In this document: positions 33,745 to 45,554 of the stretch, piece by piece
How positions within the stretch are numbered: position 1 is the stretch's first letter
Layout: each line of letters begins with the position of its first letter
Assembly: GCA_965248445.1 (NCBI GenBank)
Contig: CBDFJG010000004.1
Coordinates: forward strand, 192,001-256,000
DNA length: 64,000 nt
Origin: Planctomycetota bacterium
GTDB taxonomy: Bacteria > Planctomycetota > JAJSAM01 > JAJVHW01
Reading direction: 5' to 3'
The notes under the pieces: model-generated
What the model was told of the DNA's origin: nothing
The model's database searches: none
Seen by the model: only the letters and a program-made list of their open reading frames with translations
Made by a program: the position numbers and the translations under genes

Positions 33745-34617
33745 TCAGAAGGGCAGGTCGAGCGGCACGCCGGTCGCGGCGTCCTTCGCCGCGAGGTACG
33801 CCTTCCCCGGCTCGCAGATCTCGCTGTAGTCGCACCAGCCACACAGCGGGTTGGGAGTCGCCTCGAACGCGTCGAAGCCCAGTTCGTCGTCCTTCTCCCA
33901 GTCCGCGAGAATGCGCTCACAGACCTCGAGCAGCTCGGCCTCCTTGCGTGCCAGCAGTTCGTCGTCCGGCGTGTAGCCGAGCTCGAGGTCGTCGTTCAGG
34001 TACAGGTAGCTGCAGCGCGCGACCTTGCCGCGGAACTTGCGCGAGACGAGGATCGCGTACGCGGCGAGCTGGAGATCCTTCGCCGCCACTTCGGCATCGT
34101 CCCTCGCACGCATCGGCTTGCCCGTCTTGTAGTCGAGGATCACCAGCGAGCCGTCCGGGTTGCGGTCGATCCGGTCGATCTTGCCCGCCAGCGTGACGCG
34201 GTCGCTCAGCCGCTGTTCGTGGAACTGCTCGGCCGTCAGCGGCACGACCGTCGTGTCCTGCGTCTGGAAGAAGCGATACAGGATGTTGAGGCCCTTCTGA
34301 CCCCACGCCTTCTCGTTGTCGCGATCGTCTCCGAACGCCTCCTCGCGCGAGCGCTTCTGCTTGAAGCTATTGCGCTTGAAGACACCGCGGCCGCCCCAGG
34401 CATCACGGAGCAGGTCGCACAGCTTCTCGTACGTGCGGTCTGCGATCGCAACGCGCCCCAGATCGAAGAACGCCTCCAGCGCGTCGTGCACGGCGTTGCC
34501 GAGAACCAGAGGCGGGCTCGCCTTGAAGTACTTTCGCTTCAGTTCCTGGTCGCGCCCGTAGCGGTACTTCCGGGGACAGTTGAGGTATGCCTCGATCTGC
34601 GTCGGATAGATCTTCAT
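33745..34617 (-). CDS. PD-(D/E)XK nuclease (RecB/AddB/Cas4-like) with four-Cys Fe-S motif
   Basis: CPRKY, LGNAVHDAL, GKIDRID, LDYKTG, QLAAYA and C-terminal CGWCDYSEIC. Confidence 0.9.
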   Translation of the reverse strand: MKIYPTQIEAYLNCPRKYRYGRDQELKRKYFKASPPLVLGNAVHDALEAFFDLGRVAIADRTYEKLCDLLRDAWGGRGVFKRNSFKQKRSREEAFGDDRDNEKAWGQKGLNILYRFFQTQDTTVVPLTAEQFHEQRLSDRVTLAGKIDRIDRNPDGSLVILDYKTGKPMRARDDAEVAAKDLQLAAYAILVSRKFRGKVARCSYLYLNDDLELGYTPDDELLARKEAELLEVCERILADWEKDDELGFDAFEATPNPLCGWCDYSEICEPGKAYLAAKDAATGVPLDLPF

Positions 34618-34641
34618 CGGCGTCCGATCGTAGCGCGTCGG

Positions 34642-34902
34642 CTAGGCGTATGTATCGGCTGCTTCCGCAGCCTCGGCCCGCTTCACGGCGCGGGAGACGA
34701 AGAACACCAACACTCCGCTCAGCGACAGGATCGAGACCATCATGAAGATGATCGACCACTGGAAGCCCGTCGCGGGATCCGCGCCCCCGGCGTCACTGTT
34801 CGCGGCGACCGCCGCGTTGCAGTTTGGTCACGCGAACGCCGTCGCTGCGAGCGCCATCACCAGCGCAACGGCGAGCGGACCAGCAGGCATTGAGCGGCGC
34901 AT
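34642..34902 (-). CDS. Small exported membrane-anchored UxxC protein, candidate selenoprotein (in-frame TGA at codon 25)
   Basis: Manual translation: MRRSMPAGPLAVALVMALAATAFA-[TGA]-PNCNAAVAANSDAGGADPATGFQWSIIFMMVSILSLSGVLVFFVSRAVKRAEAAEAADTYA*. Signal peptide, UxxC, TM helix and basic tail; fills the gap after DUF420. Absent from the ORF track. Confidence 0.75.
34795..34823 (-). promoter_or_regulatory. Candidate bacterial SECIS element
   Basis: On the mRNA: ACUG-caa-CGCGGC-GGUC-GCCGCG-aa-CAGU. The 6-bp upper stem starts 11 nt after the UGA at 34830-34828; apical loop GGUC. Confidence 0.62.
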
Positions 34903-34958
34903 GTCCAGACCCTAAGCCCCCGCGAGCCGGGCAGCCAGACGATCATGGCCCTCGTGCA

Positions 34959-35384
34959 TCACTCCAACCCGGGAGCGACGTGATACAGCATCGCGTAGAT
35001 CACGACGCCCGTGGCCGAGACGTACGCCCAGATCGGGAACGTGACCTTGGCCCAGCGGCGGTGCTGCGCGATGCGCTCCTTCCAGCCGAGGTACGCGGTG
35101 CGGAGTGCCAGGAACGGGACGATCGCGGCGAGCACCGTGTGCGTAGCCAGGATGACGAGGTAGATCCCCCGCCAGGGGGACACCTTGGGGAAGGTCTGCA
35201 GCTCGCCGGCCAGTGTGGCCCGCGTCACGTACGAGACCAGAAAGACGCTGGAGACGACCAACGCGCTCAGCATCATCCGCTTGTGCCCCGGGACGTCGCC
35301 GCGCTTCACCCGGGCGATCCCCACACAGAGCAGCACGAGCGCAGTGAGGTTCAGGGCGGCGTTGGCCGCCGCGTGCACGTGCAT
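34959..35384 (-). CDS. DUF420 (CtaM/YozB-like) membrane protein
   Basis: NAALN, HKRMM, FLVSY, ILATHTVLA, HRRWAK..PIWAYVSATGVVIY motifs. Confidence 0.92.
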   Translation of the reverse strand: MHVHAAANAALNLTALVLLCVGIARVKRGDVPGHKRMMLSALVVSSVFLVSYVTRATLAGELQTFPKVSPWRGIYLVILATHTVLAAIVPFLALRTAYLGWKERIAQHRRWAKVTFPIWAYVSATGVVIYAMLYHVAPGLE

Positions 35385-35392
35385 CGGCCGAG

Positions 35393-36055
35393 CTAGGAGC
35401 CTCGCCCGGCAGAGCGCAGCGTGTCGAGGTCCTTCATCAGCTTGTCGAGCCAGCCGGGATCCTCGAGCGGTTCGTAGTGCGCCCGTCCGCGGCCCTCGTG
35501 GTCCAGCAGCACGAACGTGGACTTGTGCAGGATCACGTCTCCGCCGTCGCCGATCTTCAGCTGGTCGGTCGTGATCGCCTTGACATGCGCACGCGACATG
35601 CGGAGGAACAGCCACTTGTCCTTGTCCGCGCCGTACTCGTCTGCGTAGTTCGACAGCACGTCGGGAGTGTCGCGCTCGGGGTCCACGCTGAACGACGTCA
35701 GCACGACGTCCTCGGCGCCGTCCAGACGCGCCTGCAACTCCTGCATCGCCTTCGACATGCGCGGACAGGTCCCGCCGCAGCTCGTGAAGATGAAGTCGAC
35801 GACGGCGAACTTGCCGCGCAGGTCGCCGGTGCTGACGACGTCTCCGGAGCGCTCGACCGCGTCGTAGACCTCGAGCTGTCCGAGGGGCTGCGGCAACAGG
35901 CCCGTGTCGCCGCGACCCGGCTCGATCAAGGGGCCGTCGCCTTCCTCGAGCGTGATCACATTCGCGTGCTCGTCGGTCGGCGGACCGCTCTCCCGGCACG
36001 CGACGAACACGAACAGGGCTGCGCCGATCAACAGGACTGGAAGCACGTAGCGCAT
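35393..36055 (-). CDS. SCO family copper chaperone
   Basis: FIFTSCGGTCP (CxxxC), SVDPERDTP, distal His in ILHKS. Confidence 0.93.
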   Translation of the reverse strand: MRYVLPVLLIGAALFVFVACRESGPPTDEHANVITLEEGDGPLIEPGRGDTGLLPQPLGQLEVYDAVERSGDVVSTGDLRGKFAVVDFIFTSCGGTCPRMSKAMQELQARLDGAEDVVLTSFSVDPERDTPDVLSNYADEYGADKDKWLFLRMSRAHVKAITTDQLKIGDGGDVILHKSTFVLLDHEGRGRAHYEPLEDPGWLDKLMKDLDTLRSAGRGS

Positions 36056-36864
36056 CACTTGTGGTCTCCTCGGCTGCGCGCCCCGACGATCCAGAGCGCC
36101 ACCACGAACATGAGGATGGCCGTCCCGGCCGTCACGCCCATGGAAACGCCGAAGGCCGGCAGGTCATGCCCGGGAACTTCGCCTCCGTACAGCGCCTGGC
36201 GGAACGCGGCGACGCCGTAGGTGAGCGGGTTGGCCTGCATCACCCAGCGCAGCCAGATCGGCGCTCCTTCGAGCGGGAAGAACGCGCCCGAGAGCAGCCA
36301 GAGCGGGAACAGGAACAGCATCATCACGGCGTGGAAGCCCTGCGTGGACTCCATGCGCCACCCGACCACGAATCCCAGCGCGGCGAGCCCGAACCCGACG
36401 ACGATCAGGACACCGACACCGGCGAGGAACGAGCCTGCCGTGACGGGCACCCCGACGACGGGCGCCATCAGCAGGAACAGGACGCCCTGGATGATCGCCA
36501 GCGTCGCGCCTCCCCCGACCTTGCCCAGAACGATGCCTGCGCGAGACGCCGGTGAGACGAGGACTGACTGCAGGAAGCCCTCGTTGCGGTCCTGGATGAG
36601 CGAGAACGTCGAGAAGATCGCGGTGAACAGGAGGACCATCACGACGGTGCCCGGGAACAGGAACTCGAGGAAGCCCTGCTTGTCCTCGCCCCCGCCGATC
36701 GAGAACGCTCCCTGGAACCCGGCGCCGAACAGCAGCCAGAACACCATCGGCTGAACGATCGCAGACGTGAGGCGCTTGCGCTGGCGCACAAACCGCACGA
36801 GCTCGCGCTTCCAGAGGGTGAACGCCGGGAGCCCGAATCGGCCAGTGAAGTCTGTGCGGCTCAC
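36055..36864 (-). CDS. ABC-2 type permease
   Basis: Six TM helices; FLFPG, DRNEGFL, LSGAFFP, NPLTYGV. Confidence 0.92.
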   Translation of the reverse strand: MSRTDFTGRFGLPAFTLWKRELVRFVRQRKRLTSAIVQPMVFWLLFGAGFQGAFSIGGGEDKQGFLEFLFPGTVVMVLLFTAIFSTFSLIQDRNEGFLQSVLVSPASRAGIVLGKVGGGATLAIIQGVLFLLMAPVVGVPVTAGSFLAGVGVLIVVGFGLAALGFVVGWRMESTQGFHAVMMLFLFPLWLLSGAFFPLEGAPIWLRWVMQANPLTYGVAAFRQALYGGEVPGHDLPAFGVSMGVTAGTAILMFVVALWIVGARSRGDHK

Positions 36865-37796
36865 TCGAACGCCTTCCCCGTCTTCTCCAGGAACACGTCT
36901 TCGAGGGTCGGCCGCCCGACGGTGACCGACGCCAGGTCGTCGCCGAACGCAGCGAGCAGACGCGCCACGAGAGCCGGTCCGGCGTCCTCGCGGACGTGCA
37001 ATCCGCCGCCGACCGAGGCCATCTGCACCCCTAGCTCGGCGCCGATTCGGGCGCGCACGGAGTCGAGTTCACCGGGGGCTGCGGGCACCGCGGTCACGAC
37101 GTCGCCCCCGAGCGCCGCGCGCAACTCGTGCGGCGTGCCGAGCGCGACGAGCTTTCCCGCGTCGAGGATCGCCACACGATCGCAGCGCTCCGCCTCCTCC
37201 ATCAGGTGCGTCGTGACGAGACACGCAACCCCGTCCTCGTCGCGCAATCGCGCGAGGTGGTCCCACACGTCGCGGCGGGCGGCGGGGTCGAGGCCGGTTG
37301 TCGGCTCGTCGAGCAGCAGCAGCCGCGGCCGGTGCAGCAGTCCCTTCGCGATCTCGACCCGGCGCTGCAGGCCTCCGGACAACTCGCGCACCAGGTCGCC
37401 GGAACGGTCGCTCAGGCCGAAGCGGGAGAGACCGGCGTCGATGCGGGCCGTGAGCTCGCGACCGCTCAGCCCATAGAGGTGACCCTGGTGAACCAGGTTC
37501 TCGCGCACCGTGAGGTGCACGTCGAGCGACGGCGATTGGAAGACGACGCCAATCCCCTCGCGCACGGCCGCGCTCTCGTCCGGAAGCGCGTGCCCGAGCA
37601 CTCGCGCCGCACCGGAGGTCGGCGGAAGGAGCGTCGAAACGACGCGGAACAGCGTCGTCTTGCCGCCGCCGTTCGGGCCGAGCAGGCCGAACAACTCGCC
37701 CGGCCGCAGTGAGAACGTGACGTCATCCAGAGCGCGTCGCTCGCCGTAGTGGCGCGACAGTCCAGCGAGGGCGAGCGGAGAGGTGCTCTCCGTCAT
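36861..37796 (-). CDS. ABC transporter ATP-binding protein
   Basis: GPNGGGKT, LSGGLQ, LLLDEPT, TTH, PTLEDVF; ATG 37796 overlaps the ctaB stop. Confidence 0.93.
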   Translation of the reverse strand: MTESTSPLALAGLSRHYGERRALDDVTFSLRPGELFGLLGPNGGGKTTLFRVVSTLLPPTSGAARVLGHALPDESAAVREGIGVVFQSPSLDVHLTVRENLVHQGHLYGLSGRELTARIDAGLSRFGLSDRSGDLVRELSGGLQRRVEIAKGLLHRPRLLLLDEPTTGLDPAARRDVWDHLARLRDEDGVACLVTTHLMEEAERCDRVAILDAGKLVALGTPHELRAALGGDVVTAVPAAPGELDSVRARIGAELGVQMASVGGGLHVREDAGPALVARLLAAFGDDLASVTVGRPTLEDVFLEKTGKAFE

Positions 37797-38689
37797 GCCG
37801 GTCCGAGCGCGGCGAACGCGAGCAGGACGACCGGGAGGTAGAGCAGCGACCCACGTAACAGCAGTCGTGCGCTGCGCTCCGAGGTGCGGAACGCGAAGAG
37901 CCCACCGCAGACTACGAGCCCCACGCCTGCCGCGAGCGCCACGATGAAGTAGTCCTGCCCTGCCAGCCCGAGCGGAACCGCAGCGAGCGAGACTGCCACG
38001 GTGAGGAGCCCCTGCACGACCACCTGTCGGGCAGTGGCGCCGCTGCCGCCGGTCACGACGGGCAGCATCGCGTACCCCGCACGCGCGTAGTCGTCGCGAT
38101 AGAGCCATGCGATCGCGAGAAAGTGCGGCAGCTGCCAGGCCGCGACCAGCGCGAACAGGAACCAGGCTCGCGTACCGAGATGTCCCGTCGCCGCGGCGGC
38201 ACCGAGGAGTGGCGGCAGCGCGCCCGGGATGGCGCCGACCAGCGTGTTCAACGAGGTGCGCGTCTTGAGCGGCGTGTAGATGCCGAGGTACGTCCCGACC
38301 GTGAGCGCGCCCAGGGCGAACGCCAGCGGCGTCGTCCAGAGAAGCAGCACACCGAGACCGAGGACGATCAGCGCCAGCCCGAACACGTACGCCTCGGCGG
38401 GCGTGACGCGGCCTGCGGGCAGCGGTCGATCGCGGGTCCGCACCATGCGGGCGTCGAGGTCCCGTTCCATCCACTGGTTCAGCGCGCTCGCGCCGAAAGC
38501 GAGTAGACCCGCTCCGGCGATTGCGGCGGCGAATCGCGATGCTGGTGCGAACGTCCCGGCGGCAACCCACCAGCCTGCGGCGACTGCGAGCACCGCCATC
38601 GCGTTCAGGCGTGGCTTCGTCAGCGCAACGAACGCACCGAGCCGTGCGGCTGCTCCGATCGGAGCTACGGTCGCGTCCGTGACGCTCAC
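37793..38689 (-). CDS. ctaB: Heme o synthase (protoheme IX farnesyltransferase)
   Basis: LTKPRL, NQWMERDLDARMVRTRDRPLPAG, YTPLK, GALPP, WQLPHF, DDYARAG. Confidence 0.95.
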   Translation of the reverse strand: MSVTDATVAPIGAAARLGAFVALTKPRLNAMAVLAVAAGWWVAAGTFAPASRFAAAIAGAGLLAFGASALNQWMERDLDARMVRTRDRPLPAGRVTPAEAYVFGLALIVLGLGVLLLWTTPLAFALGALTVGTYLGIYTPLKTRTSLNTLVGAIPGALPPLLGAAAATGHLGTRAWFLFALVAAWQLPHFLAIAWLYRDDYARAGYAMLPVVTGGSGATARQVVVQGLLTVAVSLAAVPLGLAGQDYFIVALAAGVGLVVCGGLFAFRTSERSARLLLRGSLLYLPVVLLAFAALGPA

Positions 38690-39723
38690 GACACGGCCTC
38701 GAGTTCGCGGGATGAGTCCGCCGCAGCGCTCGCCTCGATGCGATCTCGCGCCTCCGCAACGCGCTCGTCCGTCGGCACGCCGTAGATGCGGAGTCCGCGG
38801 AACAGCAGCGTGACGCAGAGCGCGAGAATCGCCGCCCCGAGCACCAGGTGCAGATTGAGGGTCGCGATGGCACCGAGAGACGGCAGGTCCTGGTAACCGG
38901 CGGCGACGTGCTGCGCTCGTTCGGTCGCTACCAGGTACGAGGCGAGGCCGAGGCCGATCTGCGCGATGACGAGTACGCCAAGCCATACGGACGGACGGCG
39001 CAGTCTCGGGAGCTCACGGGGCACGTCGCCGGCGCCGGTCAACACCAGCTTCGCCAGCAAGATCACGACGAGCAGAGCGAACATGGAGTGCACTTCGCGC
39101 GCGAGGTAGCCGTGCCGCGCGGCGGCTCCGAGGACGAGCTGCACGAATACCACGACTCCAGCCAGCATGGCTCCGCGTACGACGGCCAGGCCCGTCGCGT
39201 CGAGCGGCCGGTCTTCGTCCGTACGCCAGCGCGGGGAGAGGAACGTCGCGAGGGCGACGAGAGTGCAGAGGAAGAGCTGCGCGAACACCGAGTGCAGGAG
39301 CGGCCACGGCGGTGCCAGCAAGAACAGGACGCCGAGGCCGCCGAACGCCGCCTGCAGGACGACGAGGCCGAGAGCGAACCAGGCCAGCTTCCGAACCCAG
39401 CTGCGCGGATCGCAGCGCTGCACCCAAATGGCGAGCACGAGTGTCAGCATGCCCATCACGCCCGCAATGTGCCGGTGCAGCACCTCCGCGCGCAGCGTGT
39501 CGATGCGATACAGCTCCCTCAGCTTGGCCCAGTCCGGCAGCAGCTCACCGTAGATCAGCGGCCAGTCCGGGACAGTGAGACCCGCGCGCTGCGTGCGCAC
39601 GTTCGCCCCCGCGAGCAGTAGGAGCACGCAGAACCCCACACACAGCGCCGCCCATCTGAACAACCGGCTCGGCCGTCCCACGTCAGGTGGTTCGACACGG
39701 GTGGCGGTGTTCTTTTCGTCCAT
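38686..39723 (-). CDS. ctaA: Heme A synthase (COX15/CtaA family)
   Basis: AGLTVPDWP, EVLHR, QAAFGG, conserved His residues, QLVLGAAARH; sits between ctaD and ctaB. Confidence 0.88.
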   Translation of the reverse strand: MDEKNTATRVEPPDVGRPSRLFRWAALCVGFCVLLLLAGANVRTQRAGLTVPDWPLIYGELLPDWAKLRELYRIDTLRAEVLHRHIAGVMGMLTLVLAIWVQRCDPRSWVRKLAWFALGLVVLQAAFGGLGVLFLLAPPWPLLHSVFAQLFLCTLVALATFLSPRWRTDEDRPLDATGLAVVRGAMLAGVVVFVQLVLGAAARHGYLAREVHSMFALLVVILLAKLVLTGAGDVPRELPRLRRPSVWLGVLVIAQIGLGLASYLVATERAQHVAAGYQDLPSLGAIATLNLHLVLGAAILALCVTLLFRGLRIYGVPTDERVAEARDRIEASAAADSSRELEAVS

Positions 39724-39766: not shown

Positions 39767-41566
39767 CTATCCCGCGGGCGTGGAGGTGACCTCGCGCTCC
39801 GAGAGATCCAGGTCCTGCGGGAGCCAGTCTTCGTCCACCTCGGGTGAGGCGTACTCGTACGGCCCGCGATAGACGGTCGGGATGACCGGTCCGAAGTTGC
39901 CGTGGATGCCCGGCGTCGGGGATGCCGTCCACTCGAGCGTGTTGGCGTTCCAGGGGTTCTGCTCTGCCTTCTTGCCCTTCCACATGCTCCAGAGCACGTT
40001 GAAGAGAAGGATCAGCTGCGTGAACCCGAGCAGGATCGCGGCGTGCGTCATGAGCCTGTTCATCGGCAGCATGCCGTCGATGTAGACGTACTTCTCGTAC
40101 GGGTTCTGCGTTCGGCGGTGCATGCCGCCCATGCCGACGACGTGCATCATGAAGAACGTCATGTTGAAGGCGATGAAGGACAGCCAGAAGTGGATGTACC
40201 CGAGCGTCCGGTTCATGTGGCGCCCGAACATCTTCGGGTACCAGTAGTAGATCCCGGCGAACGCGCCGAACAGGCTGCCGCCGAATAACACGTAGTGGAT
40301 GTGCGCGACGATGAAGTACGTGTCGTGGATGTGCACGTCCACGGGTGTCGCGGCCATGTAGATCCCTGATAACCCGCCGATCACGAACATGCTGACGAAC
40401 GCAATGGCGAAGCACATCGGCACCGTGAACCGAATTTGACCGCGCCACAATGTCGCCAGCCAGTTGAACACCTTGATGGCGCTCGGTAGCGCGATCATCA
40501 TCGTCGAGAGCATGAAGGTCATGCCGAGCATCGGGTTCATGCCGCTCTGGAACATGTGGTGACCCCACACGATGAACCCGAGTCCGGCGATGCCTGCGAT
40601 GGAGTAGACCATCGGGCGGTAACCGAAGATCGGCTTGCGCGCGAACGTCGCGATGACGTCCGACGCCATACCCATCGACGGCAGGATCATGATGTAGACG
40701 GCGGGGTGGCTGTAGAACCAGAACAGGTGCTGGTAGAGGATCGGGTTGCCACCGCCCGACGCGTAGTTGAACGGGTTGCCGCCGATCTCGAGGCCCTGCG
40801 AGAGGCCCGCCGGGATGAAGAAGCTGGAGCCCCAAACGCGGTCCAGCAGCAGCATGATCATCGCGGACGTCAGCACCGGCGTGGCGAACACCGACAGGAT
40901 GCTGGTGATGAAGATCGACCAGACCGTGAGCGGCATGCAGAAGAAGCGCATGCCCGGCGCGCGCATGGTCACGATCGTCGTGATGTAGTTGGTCGCGCCC
41001 ATGATCGAGCCGGAGCCGACCAGGATGACGCCCACGCACCAGAGTGATTGACCCTGACCGGCGAGATACGAGAGCGGTGGATAGCCCGTCCACCCAGAGG
41101 CGGGTGCCCCCGCCGCTCCCTCGATCACGAACGACATGCCGAAGCAGACGAACGCAGGCCACATGACCCAGTACGAGACCATGTTCAGAAGCGGGAAGGC
41201 CATGTCGCGCGCACCGATCATCAGCGGCACGCAGAAGTTCCCGAACGCGCCGACGAGCATCGGAATGATGACCAGGAAGATCATCACCGAGGCGTGCATC
41301 GTGAACGCCATGTTGTAGATGTCGCCGCTGGCGACGTTCTCGCCCTCGCCGTACATCGCTTCGAGGATCGACCCGAGCACCGGGACCTCGGTGTTCGGGT
41401 ACGCCAGCTGCCAGCGGACGATCAGCGCCAGCGCCCCGCCGACGAACATCCAGAGCAGCGTCGTGATGAGGAACTGCTTGCCGATCATCTTGTGGTCCAT
41501 CGAGAAGACGTATTTCCCGAGGAACCCCGGCTCGTGGTGGTGATCGTGGCCGTGCTCGTCGCCCAT
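39767..41566 (-). CDS. ctaD: Cytochrome c oxidase subunit I (A2-type)
   Basis: DHKMIG, TMHAS, GARDMAFP, WFYSHPAVY, WGHHM, HDTYFIVAHIHY, GMHRR. Confidence 0.97.
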   Translation of the reverse strand: MGDEHGHDHHHEPGFLGKYVFSMDHKMIGKQFLITTLLWMFVGGALALIVRWQLAYPNTEVPVLGSILEAMYGEGENVASGDIYNMAFTMHASVMIFLVIIPMLVGAFGNFCVPLMIGARDMAFPLLNMVSYWVMWPAFVCFGMSFVIEGAAGAPASGWTGYPPLSYLAGQGQSLWCVGVILVGSGSIMGATNYITTIVTMRAPGMRFFCMPLTVWSIFITSILSVFATPVLTSAMIMLLLDRVWGSSFFIPAGLSQGLEIGGNPFNYASGGGNPILYQHLFWFYSHPAVYIMILPSMGMASDVIATFARKPIFGYRPMVYSIAGIAGLGFIVWGHHMFQSGMNPMLGMTFMLSTMMIALPSAIKVFNWLATLWRGQIRFTVPMCFAIAFVSMFVIGGLSGIYMAATPVDVHIHDTYFIVAHIHYVLFGGSLFGAFAGIYYWYPKMFGRHMNRTLGYIHFWLSFIAFNMTFFMMHVVGMGGMHRRTQNPYEKYVYIDGMLPMNRLMTHAAILLGFTQLILLFNVLWSMWKGKKAEQNPWNANTLEWTASPTPGIHGNFGPVIPTVYRGPYEYASPEVDEDWLPQDLDLSEREVTSTPAG

Positions 41567-41568
41567 GA

Positions 41569-42582
41569 TCAGAAGTCCTCCTCGTCGTCTTCCGACGGCG
41601 TGTCGGGTCCTAGGTCATCGGGTCCGAACGGTTTGCGTTGCCAGCGCGGCTTCTCGAGGGCGAGGTTCTCGCTCTGCCACTGCCAGCGCCACCAGATCTC
41701 GTACGAGACGCTTCCGTTCGGACCGATCTTCCCGTGCTCCGGCAACTTCACGGATGTCGGCTGACCGGCCATCCACGCCTCGTAATCGGCGTTCGACACG
41801 ACGTACAGCCGGGCCGACATGGCGGAGTGCGTGGCGCCACACAACTCGGCGCAGACGATGTCCCAGTAGTCGAGCTGCACGTCGTTGCTGTCGCGGTCCT
41901 TGACGGTCTTTCGATCGGCGGACAGCTTGTTGGAGCGGAACCACACGTTCGCCGGCCACCCCGGAACCGCGTCCTGCTTGAAGCGCAGGTTCGGCAGGAA
42001 GAAGCTGTGAAGCACGTCCATCGACCGTTCCTCGGCGAGGACCGGCCGGTCGATCGGGATGATCAGTGCACCCGTCGTTACGAGGTCGTCGTTCGCGGAG
42101 AACTTCCCCTCGGCATCCGCGACGGCGTACTCGCCGTCGGGACCGGGGTAGCGGAAGTTCCACTCGAACTGCTTCGCGAAGATCTGCACGGGAACGGCTT
42201 CGCCGTCCATCTCGCCCGGCCGGGCCGACTTCATGTCGAGCCAGAGTTCGGCCTGGTACACCGCGAGCAGCACGAGGATCAGCGACGGGACGATGGTCCA
42301 CACGATCTCGACCGCGTGGTTGCCGTGCGTGTGCTTCGCCTTCTGCCCCGCCTTCGCGCGGTACTTGAAGAGGAAGTAGACGAGGACAGCCTGGACGAGC
42401 ACGAACGTGACGCCCGTGATCCACGTGATCAGGTACGTCAGCCTGTCGATCTCCTCGGCCTGCTCCGAGGCAGGCTCAGGGAGCCAGCCCAGGACGTCGC
42501 CCGAGCAGCCTGCGAGGAGCGCGACGCTCGCGAGCGCCCCGAGGGCGCGCAGGCAGTTCTGTCCGCGCTTGGTGGTGCTCAA
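41569..42582 (-). CDS. ctaC: Cytochrome c oxidase subunit II (CuA, lipoprotein)
   Basis: Lipobox LAGC, two TM helices, EIVWT, QFEWNFRY, DVLHSF, CAELCGATHSAM. TTG 42582 has a GGAGG RBS; ATG 42618 is an alternative start. Confidence 0.93.
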   Translation of the reverse strand: MSTTKRGQNCLRALGALASVALLAGCSGDVLGWLPEPASEQAEEIDRLTYLITWITGVTFVLVQAVLVYFLFKYRAKAGQKAKHTHGNHAVEIVWTIVPSLILVLLAVYQAELWLDMKSARPGEMDGEAVPVQIFAKQFEWNFRYPGPDGEYAVADAEGKFSANDDLVTTGALIIPIDRPVLAEERSMDVLHSFFLPNLRFKQDAVPGWPANVWFRSNKLSADRKTVKDRDSNDVQLDYWDIVCAELCGATHSAMSARLYVVSNADYEAWMAGQPTSVKLPEHGKIGPNGSVSYEIWWRWQWQSENLALEKPRWQRKPFGPDDLGPDTPSEDDEEDF

Positions 42583-42760
42583 CTCGTCCGCCTCCCGCCC
42601 CGGCTCTGCCAGGCTCATCCGTTCCACGACGAGGCGGGATGTTAGCCCAAGCGGGGGCGTCTTCAGGACCGGGAAACGGCCCGATCCGGTGGTTCCCGAC
42701 CGGAGTCGCGCCGGCCCCCCGAAAGCGGGCCCGGAAGCGGCTCCGGCCTGCATCCGCCGA

Positions 42761-43558
42761 CTACTGCGGCAGCGTCACGTCCGACGTCACGGCGTCGCCG
42801 GCGATCGTCACCTTGAAGCTCTTCTCACCGAACTTCTCGTGCCACGCCTTCATCTCGTACTCACCGTCCGGGAGGCCCGCGATCGAGTACGCGCCGCTGG
42901 CGTCGGTCGTGGCGAAGAACGGGTGCTCCGAAGCGAACGCCCAGGCGCTCATCCAGGAGTGCACGTCGCACGAGAAGGGGATGCGTCCCTCCCTCTTGTC
43001 CATCGTGATGGTGTCGGAGGCGCCGGCCTCCTGAGCCTCATTGAACGGCTCGTTGCGCTTCGCCTTGACGTGGACGTTGTGCGTCGTTGCGTCGCTGTTC
43101 ACGACGTCGAACGCCTGGCCGACCATCACGCCGAAGACGTGCGGCTTGTAATAGCACCCCTCCTGCACGAGCTTGAAGCCCGACGGAATCTCGTAGCCGG
43201 ACATCTCCTTGTGCGGGCCCTTGTGCGCCCAGACGAAGACGTTCGGGAGCGTCATGTCCTCGTTGACCCAGAACTTCTGGTCCCACGCATCCTTGTCGGC
43301 CCACGCACCGGCGCAGACTTCGTCGCTGCTGACGTTCAGCTTGACCTGCTCGGGACGCGTGCCGTCGAGCTTGACGGTGCCAGACACGCTGCCCTTCGCC
43401 GCCGCGGCGTCGTACGGAGTCTTGTCGCTGGACGCGCCGCCCGATCCGCCGCCGTTGTCGGCCGCATCACCGCCGCCCGACTTCTTGTCGTCGCCGCCGC
43501 AGGCCACCAGGCCGAGCATCACGAGCCCGGTTGCGAGTCCCATCACGATCGTTTTCAT
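42761..43558 (-). CDS. Lipoprotein with amicyanin-like cupredoxin insert and carboxypeptidase-regulatory-like fold (paralog 1)
   Basis: GGAGGAGG RBS; lipobox LVAC; THNVH and CDVHSWM; HPFFATTDASGAYSIAGLPDGEY. Confidence 0.85.
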   Translation of the reverse strand: MKTIVMGLATGLVMLGLVACGGDDKKSGGGDAADNGGGSGGASSDKTPYDAAAAKGSVSGTVKLDGTRPEQVKLNVSSDEVCAGAWADKDAWDQKFWVNEDMTLPNVFVWAHKGPHKEMSGYEIPSGFKLVQEGCYYKPHVFGVMVGQAFDVVNSDATTHNVHVKAKRNEPFNEAQEAGASDTITMDKREGRIPFSCDVHSWMSAWAFASEHPFFATTDASGAYSIAGLPDGEYEMKAWHEKFGEKSFKVTIAGDAVTSDVTLPQ

Positions 43559-43757
43559 CTCGAGAGTCCTCCTCCGTCCGTCCCGCGCGGGCCCGGACGA
43601 TCCGATGTATTGCATGCCCCGTCGCTGCCGCGTGCGGACACTTGGACCCGTGCGGCAGGGGTAAGCCGACGATGTTCCGGCGACACCGCGGCATCTCCAA
43701 GAACTCGGGGGGGCCGGCCCGCCGTCCCGGTTCCCAGCCGCCTCCGAGCGACCCGGA

Positions 43758-44552
43758 TCACTCCGCCGCCAGGCTCGGTTCCAGGGTCACGGACGCCCCC
43801 TGCGTCACGGTGGCGCGCACCTCCGTCCGGCCGAAGTGTGGGTGGTCGACCCGGAACACGTAGTCCCCCGCCGGCAGGCCCTCGACCGAGAACGCCCCGG
43901 CGGCGTCCGTTGTGGCGAAGAACGGGTGCTCGACGACGTAGCAGTGGGCCTGCATCCACGAGTGCGTGTCGCAGACGAAGTCGACCCGTTCGCGCTTCGT
44001 CAGCGAGATCGCATCCCGCGTCCCCGGCGGCTGCGCGAGATTGAAGGGCTTGTTGCGTTTCGGCTCCGCGTGGACGTTGTGGGTCGTATTGTCGCCGTTC
44101 ACGACCCAGAGACCCTGGCCAAGCAGGATGCCCGACACGTACGGGTGGTACATGCCTCCGGTCTGCACGATCTCCGCAGCGTCAGGGACTGGAAACCCGG
44201 TGAACGTCTCGTGTGGCCCCTCGTGCGCGTACACGAACGCGTGCGGCAGCGTGCCGTCCGCGTTCACGACGAACTTCGGATTGAAGACGGGGTCGGGTGC
44301 GAACGCGGCGACGCACACGTCGTCGACGCCGCCCTTGAACTGTTCCTGCGCCGGAAGCGCCCCGGTCAGTCGTACCGTGCCCACGACCTGGCCGGTGTGC
44401 GCGCCGGACTCGTAGACCGTCTTCTCCACGACACCGGGGACGCCGGGCCCTGGCGGTGGACTGCCTGTCGGCGGCGCGTCTTCGCACGCGTCGCAGCCGG
44501 CCAGCGAAGCGATCGCTGCGATGGTGAACAGAGTCCTGCGGATCGACGTCAT
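43758..44552 (-). CDS. Cupredoxin-like lipoprotein (paralog 2)
   Basis: Lipobox LAGC; THNVH and CDTHSWM; HPFFATTDAAG. Confidence 0.85.
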   Translation of the reverse strand: MTSIRRTLFTIAAIASLAGCDACEDAPPTGSPPPGPGVPGVVEKTVYESGAHTGQVVGTVRLTGALPAQEQFKGGVDDVCVAAFAPDPVFNPKFVVNADGTLPHAFVYAHEGPHETFTGFPVPDAAEIVQTGGMYHPYVSGILLGQGLWVVNGDNTTHNVHAEPKRNKPFNLAQPPGTRDAISLTKRERVDFVCDTHSWMQAHCYVVEHPFFATTDAAGAFSVEGLPAGDYVFRVDHPHFGRTEVRATVTQGASVTLEPSLAAE

Positions 44553-44705
44553 CCTAAGAGCCCTCCGGAAGTAGACGGACGTCACACGCCCCACGATTCG
44601 CAACGCGCGCCCCACGCAACACCATCCCGGAATCGAACCCCCTGGTCCGTGCACGGGCGGGGGTGGAACCCCCGCCCGCACGGAAGGCATGCGAGGGACC
44701 TGAGG

Positions 44706-45554
44706 TCAGCGCGCGAGGCTCAAACCGATTGCCGCTGTCTCCCCGGACACCACTTCGACCTCCGCCTGTCCCTCCCCGAACCCCGGGTGCCAGGCGTGGA
44801 TCGTGTAGTAATCTGGAGGGAGCCCGCCGATCTCGAAGCGGCCGGCCGCGTCGGTGGTGGCGAAGAACGGGTGGTCCAGCACCCAGCAGTAGGCGCTCAT
44901 CCAGCTGTAGCAATCGCACGTGATGCGAACCCTCGCGCTCTTCGTGAACACGATCGTGTCCGAGGCGCCCGGCGCCTGGGTCTTCGCGATCCTCGGGTTG
45001 CGCCGCGAGGTCACGTTCAGGCAGTGCGTCTCGTCATCGAGGTTCCGCACGACCAGCGGCTGGCCGCGTAGCAGTCCGAAGACGTAGGGCCGGTACATGT
45101 AGAGGTGCGCGTCGAGATGCACCGGCGGACTCCGGGCGCCGTCAGTGATCCGAGCGACGGCGCGGACAAGGGGCGCCGCACGGATCCACACGAACGCGTT
45201 GGGCAGCGTACCGTCCGGGTTGATCGTGAACTTCGGATCGAACACCGGCGAGTCGACCGTCGCGGCTGCGGCCGTGGACGACGCGCTCATGTTGATGCGA
45301 ACCGGCGGGACGGGTGTGCCGGCGAACACCGCGACCCCCGTGATCCGCCCGGGCGGCTGCTCGAGAGCCGCCCGCTGCTCGGCGGACAGTTCCACGGAGT
45401 CGAGCGTTACGTCGAGGTCCGGTCGCAGCGGCGGGCCGGAGTCGAGCGGCAGCGACAGACACCCGCGGACCAGGAACAGCCCGAACACCGCCGCGAGGAG
45501 CGCGCCGCCGGCCACCACGACGACGGTCGCGAGCGCGGATCGGGTTCGGGCCAT
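44706..45554 (-). CDS. Cupredoxin-like membrane-anchored protein (paralog 3, altered ligand loop)
   Basis: Clear paralog (NPDGTLPNAFVW, HPFFATTDAAG) with THCLNV and CDCYSWM; GGAGG RBS. Confidence 0.82.
   Translation of the reverse strand: MARTRSALATVVVVAGGALLAAVFGLFLVRGCLSLPLDSGPPLRPDLDVTLDSVELSAEQRAALEQPPGRITGVAVFAGTPVPPVRINMSASSTAAAATVDSPVFDPKFTINPDGTLPNAFVWIRAAPLVRAVARITDGARSPPVHLDAHLYMYRPYVFGLLRGQPLVVRNLDDETHCLNVTSRRNPRIAKTQAPGASDTIVFTKSARVRITCDCYSWMSAYCWVLDHPFFATTDAAGRFEIGGLPPDYYTIHAWHPGFGEGQAEVEVVSGETAAIGLSLAR

What the first reader, a model, noticed from the sequence alone, without database searches (positions are those of the whole stretch)
34642..34902. Hidden candidate selenoprotein (N-terminal U-P-N-C) closing the cytochrome oxidase assembly operon
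Seen: an 86-codon minus-strand frame missing from the ORF track, with signal peptide ...AATAFA, then TGA (34830-34828), then PNC, a short linker, a TM helix (GFQWSIIFMMVSILSLSGVLVFFV) and a basic tail. The TGA sits exactly where the first Cys of a CxxC would be. Established: UxxC replacing CxxC is the classic signature of selenoproteins. From recall, small proteins of the form AxA-CPxC...GxxxSI-TM occur near ctaB/SCO/DUF420 genes. Inference: after signal cleavage Sec would be residue 1 of an extracytoplasmic dithiol that could reduce SCO/CuA cysteines or hand over copper. I know of no described selenoprotein in heme-copper oxidase biogenesis. Caveat: TGC to TGA is one substitution and the window has one other apparent error.
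Basis: partly seen in the sequence, partly recalled or inferred. Interest (0 to 1): 0.92.

Follow-up and report, generated by a model that had tools for sequence, protein, structure and literature searches.

The report
New selenoprotein beside cytochrome oxidase genes
A tiny membrane-anchored protein encoded at the end of a cytochrome oxidase gene cluster almost certainly carries selenocysteine, and it belongs to a widespread family in Planctomycetota that does not appear to have been described.

Summary
The minus-strand frame 34902-34642 reads signal peptide (..AFA), TGA, P-N-C, linker, one TM helix and a charged tail. It closes a COX2-COX1-CtaA-ABC-SCO1-DUF420 cluster.

- **Sec machinery:** the genome has selA, selB, tRNA-Sec and a selD that itself contains Sec.
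- **Family:** in 401 Planctomycetota genomes the family occurs in 107 (113 loci): 40 UxxC, 15 CxxU, 1 UxxU, 2 tandem UU and 55 CxxC.
- **SECIS:** a 6-bp hairpin with a GGUC loop starts 11 nt after the TGA. It is perfect in 31 of 40 UxxC genes and in 0 of 55 Cys genes, with compensatory changes. In CxxU genes the hairpin moves with the TGA.
- **selA:** found in 57 of 58 genomes with a TGA form, against 25 of 49 Cys-only genomes.
- **Gene context:** 85 of 113 loci lie beside SCO1/DUF420, COX1/COX2 or the cluster's ABC genes.
- **Prior description:** no Pfam or NCBIfam model matches, and a 2026 inventory of 119 prokaryotic selenoprotein families lists nothing like it.

Function is inferred. My best guess is a periplasmic Cu(I) relay between the DUF420/CtaM protein and Sco/CuA. 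The main rival is a thiol reductant for Sco/CuA.

The parts
34642..34902 (-). Coding sequence of the small selenoprotein (86 codons including Sec25, plus TAG stop)
   Evidence: Homologous frames in 107 of 401 genomes. Alignment A1.
34828..34830 (-). In-frame TGA read as selenocysteine (residue 25; residue 1 of the mature protein if signal peptidase cuts after AFA)
   Evidence: The column is TGA in 40 loci and Cys in 55; a second clade has the TGA at the fourth position. Sec machinery present.
34801..34816 (-). SECIS-like hairpin: stem 34816-34811 (CGCGGC), loop 34810-34807 (GGUC), stem 34806-34801 (GCCGCG), starting 11 nt after the TGA
   Evidence: Covariation on 40 sequences. Present in register in 31 of 40 UxxC loci against 0 of 55 CxxC loci.
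34831..34902 (-). Predicted signal peptide (24 residues, basic N-terminus, hydrophobic core, A-F-A at -3..-1)
   Evidence: Read from the sequence. The same layout appears in all aligned homologs. No signal-peptide predictor was run.
34696..34767 (-). Single transmembrane helix GFQWSIIFMMVSILSLSGVLVFFV, with the conserved S-I-x-x-M at its outer end
   Evidence: S, I and M are nearly invariant in A3, and M54 in A1.
34645..34695 (-). Charged C-terminal tail (SRAVKRAEAAEAADTYA), predicted to be cytoplasmic by the positive-inside rule
   Evidence: Inference from established topology rules.
34959..35384 (-). DUF420 (CtaM-like) membrane protein, immediately upstream in the operon
   Evidence: Pfam PF04238, E 6.2e-38. 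Start ATG 35384. Adjacent to the small gene in most relatives.
35393..36058 (-). SCO1/SenC copper chaperone
   Evidence: Pfam PF02630, E 1.9e-19.
36055..36864 (-). ABC-2 type permease
   Evidence: Pfam PF01061, E 6e-33. Conserved upstream of SCO1 in many relatives.
36861..38873 (-). ORF holding an ABC ATPase domain (residues 382-526); its first ~330 residues match no family
38686..39723 (-). COX15/CtaA heme A synthase (the match covers profile positions 2-208 of 322)
39767..41566 (-). Cytochrome oxidase subunit I
   Evidence: Pfam PF00115, E 6.8e-148.
41569..42753 (-). Cytochrome oxidase subunit II (CuA subunit)
   Evidence: Pfam PF02790 and PF00116.

Best explanation
The frame encodes a genuine selenoprotein of an uncharacterised family. 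The ribosome reads UGA 34830-34828 as selenocysteine, directed by a hairpin (6-bp stem, GGUC loop) that begins 11 nt downstream inside the coding sequence, using the genome's own SelA/SelB/SelD/tRNA-Sec. The product is exported and its signal peptide is cut after A-F-A. The mature 62-residue protein would then begin U-P-N-C, face the periplasm on a roughly 20-residue linker, and be held in the membrane by one C-terminal helix. It belongs functionally to the SCO1-DUF420(CtaM) copper module of the heme-copper oxidase cluster. My preferred mechanism is inferred, not shown. The Sec/Cys pair, perhaps with the conserved Met at the membrane surface, binds Cu(I) at the outer face of the membrane and passes it from the CtaM-type protein to Sco and on to CuA. 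In this it acts like PCuAC, CtaK or mitochondrial Cox17. Selenolate keeps the site reactive in an oxidising compartment. I put about 0.95 on the selenoprotein part and about 0.45 on the copper-relay mechanism.
For: **Sec machinery in the same genome:**
- selD 386 bits (cut-off 125), with its own in-frame TGA reading GGGUACK.
- selA 502 bits, selB 336 bits, tRNA-Sec 68.3 bits against a gathering score of 47.

**Sec/Cys pairing:** of 113 loci in 107 of 401 genomes, 40 are UxxC, 15 CxxU, 1 UxxU, 2 tandem UU and 55 CxxC. Both forms occur within one genus (G034 Cys, G068 Sec).

**SECIS:**
- The hairpin is in register with all 6 pairs and a GGUC loop in 31 of 40 UxxC loci, against 0 of 55 CxxC loci.
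- Covariation score is 0.379 against 0.117 for shuffles, with 0 of 500 shuffles reaching it. Slid controls score 0.03-0.13. Pair 23-34 is AU in 23 and CG in 13 sequences.
- A hairpin of 6 bp or more starting 9-16 nt after the TGA occurs in 32 of 40 UxxC, 11 of 15 CxxU and 3 of 3 other Sec forms. At the same codons of the CxxC loci it occurs in 3 and 4 of 55. The hairpin therefore follows the TGA, not the protein position.

**Co-occurrence with selA:** selA is over its cut-off in 57 of 58 genomes with a TGA form (the exception is 67% complete), against 25 of 49 Cys-only genomes.

**Independent recovery:** a scan for TGA plus this hairpin over 185,579 species genomes gave 42 hits. By my reading of the translations, 27 are family members. 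26 of those 27 records are titled as Planctomycetota lineages (including one Singulisphaera sp.) and the other (L153) as 'uncultured bacterium'.

**Link to the oxidase:**
- SCO1/DUF420 lie on the same strand within the flank in 68 of 113 loci, COX1/COX2 only in 15, and the ABC pair only in 2.
- The DUF420 stop usually lies about 70-130 nt before the Sec/Cys codon.

**Copper reading:**
- PMC13344008 (passages read) proposes CtaM as a copper exporter feeding Sco and notes Sco-DUF420 fusions in planctomycetes.
- PCuAC and Cox11 were not found in this genome, which is 92% complete.
- PCuAC was found in only 13 of 401 genomes of the phylum, and only 1 of those 13 also has this family.
- Met sits inside the motif in many members (CPMC 22, CAMC 7, CAMU 6, CSMC 5).
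- Metal-binding selenoproteins with UxxC are already listed in the inventory: the HMA-type ATPase, the CopZ family and a MerT-like protein (PMC13188914 Table 1).
Against: - No experiment or expression data: no RNA run was listed, and nothing shows selenium in the protein.
- On its own sequence the 76-nt region folds no better than shuffles (z = 0.23; 110 of 200 shuffles fold as well). The case for the hairpin therefore rests on comparison, not on folding energy.
- 8 of 40 UxxC and 4 of 15 CxxU genes lack a perfect hairpin of 6 bp or more in the window tested.
- 28 of 113 loci showed no oxidase-related neighbour by tblastn. Of these, 8 have under 500 nt of flank on one side. Pfam on 15 of the 28 found COX3/COX4/UbiA in 3, cytochrome bd in 1 and nothing relevant in 11.
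- The copper mechanism is pure inference. The ectodomain has no His, and CPxC is also a classic redox motif.
- One member (G299) is fused to a thioredoxin domain, which points toward redox chemistry.
- The laid contigs come from one sample that may be the source of the assembly.
Confidence: 0.5

Rival explanations
1. Real selenoprotein, but a redox relay rather than a copper carrier. The UxxC/CxxU pair cycles between selenol/thiol and selenylsulfide, and keeps the CxxxC of Sco and the CuA cysteines of subunit II reduced. This is the job TlpA does in Bradyrhizobium.
For: - CPxC is the motif of glutaredoxins and DsbA (recalled).
- Sec replaces either Cys of the pair (40 UxxC, 15 CxxU), as in many thiol-oxidoreductase selenoproteins in Table 1 of PMC13188914.
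- One member (G299, L108) continues into a thioredoxin domain.
- TlpA's role is described in PMC9145763 (passages read).
Against: - The ectodomain has only about 20 residues between the motif and the membrane and matches no thioredoxin-fold family.
- No electron donor is evident in the cluster.
- Met within the motif in many members fits Cu(I) better.
Confidence: 0.3
2. Real selenoprotein that is a small structural or accessory subunit of the oxidase itself or of CtaM. The pair of Cys/Sec would then serve stability or regulation, not cofactor delivery.
For: In 15 of 113 loci the gene lies downstream of COX1/COX2 without SCO1/DUF420 in the flank. In 3 further loci it lies next to COX3, COX4 or UbiA. 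Single-helix subunits are common in oxidases (established knowledge).
Against: A purely structural pair would not be expected to be invariant and repeatedly converted to Sec. The commonest neighbours are assembly genes, not subunits.
Confidence: 0.1
3. Lipoprotein reading. The first Cys/Sec is the lipid-modified residue of a lipobox, so Sec would carry the diacylglycerol.
For: A-F-A-U, A-L-A-C and A-F-G-U fit the permissive PROSITE lipobox pattern (recalled) at -1 and -2.
Against: - In the second clade the pair is preceded by Gln or Gln-Gly after AxA (AxAQ-C-x-M-U), which no lipobox allows.
- Position -3 is mostly Ala rather than Leu.
- The protein already has a TM anchor.
- Pro at +2 and Cys at +4 are invariant, which lipidation does not explain.
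Confidence: 0.03
4. Artefact or pseudogene: a TGC-to-TGA sequencing error or a recent nonsense mutation, with no read-through.
For: TGC to TGA is a single substitution, and the laid contigs may come from the source sample.
Against: - The same TGA is present in 40 genomes, with a further 18 TGA forms at the neighbouring Cys position.
- The downstream frame is conserved.
- A covarying hairpin is found only in TGA forms.
- selA is present in 57 of 58 such genomes.
Confidence: 0.01

Closest known systems
UxxC / CxxU thiol-oxidoreductase-like bacterial selenoproteins (DsbA-like, TlpA/thiol:disulfide interchange, Prx-like; PMC13188914 Table 1)
   Same: Sec replaces one Cys of a CxxC pair. Cys-containing orthologs exist. 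A SECIS hairpin lies directly downstream of the UGA. Many are exported.
   Different: No thioredoxin fold, and no Pfam or NCBIfam match. The whole ectodomain is a short peptide. The motif sits at the very N-terminus of the predicted mature protein. Either Cys can be the Sec within one family.
Metal-binding selenoproteins (HMA-type cation ATPase UxxC, CopZ-family, MerT-like, SO_0444 Cu/Zn efflux; PMC13188914 Table 1)
   Same: Sec in a soft-metal-binding Cys motif. Copper-related gene context.
   Different: No HMA or other known metal-binding domain. The context is oxidase biogenesis rather than detoxification. Metal binding here is inferred only.
Periplasmic or IMS copper donors for CuA: PCuAC, CtaK (B. 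subtilis), Cox17 (mitochondria)
   Same: Small extracytoplasmic protein encoded with, or acting with, Sco. PCuAC is nearly absent from the phylum: 13 of 401 genomes, only 1 of which also has this family.
   Different: No H(M)X10MX21HXM motif, no cupredoxin fold and no twin CX9C. Anchored by a C-terminal helix. Uses Cys/Sec instead of His/Met.
TlpA (Bradyrhizobium), reductant of Sco and CoxB
   Same: Membrane-anchored periplasmic CxxC protein needed for CuA assembly (PMC9145763).
   Different: TlpA is a full thioredoxin-fold enzyme. This family is not.

Membership tests
Bacterial selenoprotein (SelB/SECIS-dependent UGA recoding) | In-frame UGA aligned with Cys in homologs | tested here: met
   40 UxxC, 15 CxxU, 1 UxxU and 2 UU against 55 CxxC among 113 loci.
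Bacterial selenoprotein (SelB/SECIS-dependent UGA recoding) | Stem-loop shortly downstream of the UGA with G/U in the apical loop, conserved by covariation | tested here: met
   The loop is GGUC. The spacing and GU-loop rule are recalled from the literature on bSECIS, not tested against a model. Rfam gave no match.
Bacterial selenoprotein (SelB/SECIS-dependent UGA recoding) | selA, selB, selD and tRNA-Sec in the genome | tested here: met
   selA found in 57 of 58 genomes with a TGA form.
Bacterial selenoprotein (SelB/SECIS-dependent UGA recoding) | Selenium shown in the protein | not testable with these tools
   Needs 75Se labelling or mass spectrometry.
Any described selenoprotein family with a Pfam/NCBIfam model | Match to the family model | tested here: not met
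   The window protein and 15 Cys homologs give only noise: no Pfam or NCBIfam hit comes near its cut-off. Every entry of the 119-family table in PMC13188914 carries a domain id.
Thioredoxin-fold oxidoreductases (TlpA, DsbA, ResA) | Thioredoxin fold around the CxxC | tested here: not met
   No family match. About 20 residues lie between the motif and the TM helix.
PCuAC | H(M)X10MX21HXM motif in a cupredoxin-like domain | tested here: not met
   No His in the mature sequence. No PF04314 match anywhere in the genome.
SCO1/SenC | CxxxC plus His in a thioredoxin fold | tested here: not met
   The motif is CxxC. PF02630 matches the neighbouring gene, not this one.
Bacterial lipoproteins | Lipobox with Cys at +1 throughout the family | tested here: not met
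   The second clade has Q or QG between AxA and the first Cys.
c-type cytochrome with CxxCK heme site (NrfA-like; motif recalled) | Conserved Lys (or His) directly after the second Cys | tested here: not met
   The residue after the pair is N in the window. It is V, A, S or A in the four Sec-form homologs from the window's own GTDB family, and R in others.

The most novel reading that the evidence does not exclude
This is the first selenoprotein dedicated to building a respiratory heme-copper oxidase. Selenocysteine is residue 1 of a mature, membrane-tethered periplasmic peptide, with a free alpha-amine next to the selenol. The peptide binds Cu(I) and hands it from a CtaM-type exporter to Sco/CuA, serving as a bacterial counterpart of Cox17. 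The family has swapped Cys and Sec repeatedly, at either position of the pair and even as a tandem Sec-Sec, across at least 19 GTDB families of Planctomycetota.
Probability: 0.35. Interest if true: 0.9.

Novelty: new variant of a known kind. Interest (0 to 1): 0.78.

Why it matters
- **Annotation:** gene callers split or drop these genes, so an abundant selenoprotein family has been invisible. In the sample it occurs in 58 of 401 species-level Planctomycetota genomes, nearly all of them MAGs.
- **Selenium and respiration:** the family links selenium use to aerobic respiration and to copper or thiol handling in oxidase assembly. In that process the role of DUF420/CtaM and the source of copper for Sco are open questions (PMC9145763, PMC13344008).
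- **A natural experiment:** Cys and Sec alternate at either position of the pair, sometimes within one genus. This gives a way to ask what selenium buys in an oxidising compartment.
- **SECIS overlap:** the hairpin is written over the conserved K-E-A-V-A-S codons. Compensatory amino-acid changes (A-V-A to V-V-T) make it a clear example of RNA structure shaping protein sequence.

Tried and rejected
- **Word-index protein search:** no hit. The exhaustive profile search was needed.
- **Rfam on 34600-34950:** only noise. No bacterial SECIS family matched.
- **The search for related loci with A1:** A DNA pattern scan was used instead.
- **The protein-atlas search with the TGA-read protein:** A natural Cys homolog, P0004, gave only 'hypothetical protein' clusters without Pfam, commonest in Planctomycetota, Verrucomicrobiota and Acidobacteriota.
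- **Complex prediction, DUF420 plus mature small protein of G004 (natural Cys form):** no verdict. It is neither for nor against binding.
- **The look-up of sequencing runs:** no RNA holder listed, so nothing on expression.
- **Single-sequence fold:** z = 0.23, so it is not usable as evidence.
- **Script:** had a bug and all its counts are void. It was replaced.
- **Earlier findings of this scan:** nothing to show.
- **Readings rejected:** lipoprotein (Q before Cys in clade 2); CxxCK heme site (Lys not conserved); sequencing error (conserved TGA, hairpin and selA).
- **Not done:** a family tree to count Sec/Cys switches (proteins too short); a read-through search outside Planctomycetota; folding the structure.

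Full report
**1. The observation.** The minus strand from 34902 to 34642 reads MRRSMPAGPLAVALVMALAATAFA, then TGA (34830-34828), then PNCNAAVAANSDAGGADPATGFQWSIIFMMVSILSLSGVLVFFVSRAVKRAEAAEAADTYA and TAG. The mechanical ORF list misses it because the TGA cuts it into pieces shorter than 40 aa. Pfam places it at the end of a co-directional cluster:
- COX2 (41569-42753)
- COX1 (39767-41566)
- COX15/CtaA (38686-39723)
- an ABC ATPase (36861-38873)
- an ABC-2 permease (36055-36864)
- SCO1/SenC (35393-36058)
- DUF420

The DUF420 gene starts at ATG 35384 and stops at 34959, which is 56 nt before the small gene. A PD-(D/E)XK nuclease gene follows at 33745-34617.

**2. Can this organism read UGA as selenocysteine?** The window is C4:192001-256000 of a 5.4-Mb, 4-contig genome that is 92% complete.
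- selD scores 386 bits against a cut-off of 125, with one in-frame TGA. It reads ...ARGGGUACKIPAE, so selD is itself a selenoprotein.
- selA scores 502 bits against a cut-off of 268.
- selB scores 336 bits against a cut-off of 242.
- tRNA-Sec scores 68.3 bits against a gathering score of 47.

**3. Homologs: TGA or Cys at the same column.**
- The read-through protein, searched stop-tolerantly in 40 relatives plus G000, matched in 16 of 41 genomes at E<=0.01.
- Translations show signal peptide, U-P-(N/S/G)-C, linker and TM in ten relatives, and C-P-N-C in four others.
- In the 14-sequence alignment A1 only the Sec/Cys, the Pro and the second Cys are invariant.
- A profile of A1 against 1.84 billion representative proteins found 3225 at E<=0.001 and 1029 at E<=1e-10. 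The 23 of the top 150 that I fetched and read are 76-126 aa proteins with the same layout.
- The only names given to them are 'hypothetical protein [Planctomycetota bacterium]'.
- One of them is identical to the protein of G034, which is 'same phylum' as the window, so the window is from Planctomycetota.

**4. Survey of the phylum.**
- A1 against 401 genomes matched in 107.
- I pulled all 113 matching loci and classified the pair: 40 UxxC, 15 CxxU, 1 UxxU (UDSU), 2 with tandem TGA-TGA ('KUU') and 55 CxxC.
- The CxxU forms belong mostly to a second clade whose signal peptide ends AxAQ before C-x-M-U.
- TGA forms occur in 58 genomes of 19 GTDB families. 49 genomes of 20 families have Cys forms only. 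Seven families hold both kinds of genome (family lines).
- One genus, g33, has both forms: G034 Cys and G068 Sec.

**5. The SECIS element.**
- In the window the sequence CGCGGC-GGUC-GCCGCG (34816-34801) starts 11 nt after the TGA.
- Across the 40 UxxC genes the same register forms all six pairs with a GGUC loop in 31, and at least five pairs in 32. Among the 55 CxxC genes none does, and the most pairs any forms is four.
- On alignment A2 the helix is paired in 80.7% of cells against 65.0% for shuffles. The covariation score is 0.379 against 0.117, and 0 of 500 shuffles reach it. Sliding the partner by 1-3 columns gives 0.03-0.13.
- Individual pairs covary: pair 21-36 is GC 27, CG 7, GU 3; pair 23-34 is AU 23, CG 13, UG 2; pair 24-33 is GC 24, CG 5, AU 4, GU 3.
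- The compensation runs through the protein. K-E-A-V-A-S, K-A-A-V-A-A, S-A-V-A-E and R-D-V-V-T-S all keep the stem.
- With a register-free criterion (stem of 6 bp or more, loop 3-8, start 9-16 nt after the codon), a hairpin follows the TGA in 32 of 40 UxxC, 11 of 15 CxxU and 3 of 3 other Sec forms. At the equivalent codons of the 55 Cys genes it appears in 3 and 4. The hairpin thus shifts by nine bases when the TGA does.
- CxxU loops read GUG, GUA, GGUC, AGGUC and AGGUG.
- Weak points: the window's 76-nt stretch folds no better than shuffles (z = 0.23); 8 UxxC and 4 CxxU genes fail the strict criterion; Rfam has no matching model.
- From recall, not tested here: the GGUC loop and its spacing resemble the E. 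coli fdhF SECIS.

**6. Orthogonal checks.**
- selA is over its cut-off in 57 of 58 genomes that carry a TGA form. The exception, G335, is 67% complete.
- Among the 49 Cys-only genomes selA is over its cut-off in 25. It was not found in 19 of the 20 genomes of family f6, which are 99-100% complete.
- A scan of one genome per species (185,579 species) for 'TGA CCN NNN TGY .. GG..GCGGTCGC..CC' gave 42 stretches. By their translations 27 are family members. 26 of those records are titled as Planctomycetota lineages (including one Singulisphaera sp.) and the other (L153) as 'uncultured bacterium'. Nine look like chance.
- Five of the hits look like other selenoproteins with the TGA at the first Cys of a pair. 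Four read VLGVAG-U-PGC and one reads DFWHTY-U-PVC; their families were not tested. One is an unassigned candidate, L186.
- Contigs assembled from 4 runs of one sample match 34500-35100 without a difference. Three of them span the whole stretch. They may be the source of the assembly, so this only shows that the TGA is not an idiosyncrasy of one assembly.

**7. Gene context across the family.**
- tblastn with the window's proteins against the 113 oriented loci found SCO1 and/or DUF420 on the same strand in 68 (36 Sec, 32 Cys), COX1/COX2 only in 15, the ABC pair only in 2, and nothing in 28.
- The usual order is ABC ATPase, ABC-2, SCO1, DUF420, small gene. Nine loci, seven of them from family f14, have small gene, SCO1, DUF420.
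- The DUF420 stop usually lies about 70-130 nt before the Sec/Cys codon, which leaves a very short intergenic gap.
- Of the 28 'none' loci, 8 have under 500 nt of flank on one side. Pfam on ORFs of 15 of them found COX3 with COX4 (L147), COX3 (L077), COX3 with UbiA (L109), cytochrome bd subunit II (L094), and nothing relevant in 11.
- In G299 the frame runs on into a thioredoxin domain.

**8. What it most likely does.**
- **Shown:** the layout, the invariant pair, the Sec/Cys alternation, and the tie to SCO1/DUF420.
- **Inferred topology:** cleavage after AxA would leave U-P-N-C at the mature N-terminus. By the positive-inside rule the N-terminus is outside and the tail inside.
- **Copper-relay model:**
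  - DUF420/CtaM is required for aa3 and caa3 oxidases, with its function unassigned (PMC9145763, passages).
  - A 2026 study proposes that it exports copper for Sco, and notes Sco-DUF420 fusions in planctomycetes (PMC13344008, passages).
  - This genome yielded no PCuAC and no Cox11.
  - PCuAC was found in 13 of 401 genomes of the phylum. Ten of those are in family f15, where the small protein was found in 0 of 23. Only one genome (G384) has both.
  - Many members have Met inside the pair, and a nearly invariant Met sits at the outer end of the helix.
  - I therefore favour a Cu(I) relay, at about 0.45.
- **Rivals:** a TlpA-like reductant role is the main rival at about 0.3, supported by the CPxC motif and the thioredoxin fusion. 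A structural-subunit role gets about 0.1.
- A complex prediction for DUF420 with the small protein returned no verdict and counts for nothing.

**9. Comparison with what is known.**
- Pfam and NCBIfam (June 2026) give no hit near cut-off, either for the window protein or for 15 Cys homologs.
- The protein atlas gives only unnamed clusters.
- The 2026 review PMC13188914 presents 'the most comprehensive inventory' of 119 prokaryotic selenoprotein families, each with a domain id. I read Table 1 in full (section 7, parts 1-2). Nothing in it resembles a signal-peptide/UxxC/one-helix protein or oxidase biogenesis.
- Four full-text searches turned up no description.
- A 2016 planctomycete genome paper lists selenoprotein candidates. 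Its Table S9, read in full, contains one unnamed 'hypothetical' candidate with Cys in Rhodopirellula sallentina. That candidate could be a member; I cannot tell.
- The recoding mechanism is the ordinary bacterial one. What is new is the family, its place in oxidase assembly, the Sec at the predicted mature N-terminus, and the Sec at either or both positions of the pair.

**10. Verdict.** I am about 0.95 confident that this is a genuine selenoprotein family. The family appears undescribed. Its function in copper or thiol handling for the oxidase is a well-motivated inference that needs experiment.

Noticed in passing
G000:C3:1080793-1081719 (locus L001): The genome's own selD has an in-frame TGA and reads ...ARGGGUACKIPAE, so it is a Sec-containing SelD.
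   Followed up: partly
L135 (G334); L136 (G387); L145 (G250): Three family members carry two TGAs. One reads U-D-S-U. Two, from different genera, read K-U-U with tandem TGA-TGA and an 8-bp hairpin 10 nt after the second TGA. The two tandem forms have only a short N-terminal hydrophobic stretch and lie directly after the ABC-2 permease. I did not see an adjacent Sec-Sec pair in the 2026 inventory.
   Followed up: partly
L108:2384-3130 (G299): A Cys-form member continues past its TM helix into a thioredoxin domain (Pfam PF00085, E 5.5e-11). It is a natural fusion that hints at redox chemistry.
   Followed up: no
L157, L163, L172, L181, L177, L186: The TGA-plus-GGUC-hairpin pattern also hit apparent selenoproteins of other phyla. 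Four read VLGVAG-U-PGC (Dehalococcoidales, Chloroflexia, Bacillota) and one reads DFWHTY-U-PVC (Methylomirabilota). There is also an unassigned signal-peptide protein reading ...MSSC-U-PRC in a Thermodesulfobacteriota MAG. Their families were not tested.
   Followed up: no
window 36055-38873 and the same position in many loci: An ABC ATPase plus ABC-2 permease pair sits between ctaA and sco in this window. An ABC-2 gene lies upstream of SCO1/DUF420 on the same strand in 25 of the 113 relatives' loci. From recall it resembles the NosFY part of the copper-delivery system of N2O reductase. Its role here is unknown.
   Followed up: no
window 38686-39723 and 36861-38873: The CtaA ORF matches only profile positions 2-208 of 322. 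It overlaps by 188 nt the 670-aa ABC ORF, whose first ~330 residues match no family.
   Followed up: no
window 42761-45554 (minus strand): Three tandem paralogous ORFs (284, 310 and 282 aa), each ending in a CarboxypepD_reg domain, lie directly upstream of COX2, followed by a HEAT-repeat protein.
   Followed up: no
G034 vs G068 (genus g33); G002/G004 vs G000/G001/G005-G007 (family f1): Cys and Sec forms alternate within one genus and within the window's own family. All these genomes have selA, so the switch is recent and is not forced by loss of the Sec machinery.
   Followed up: partly
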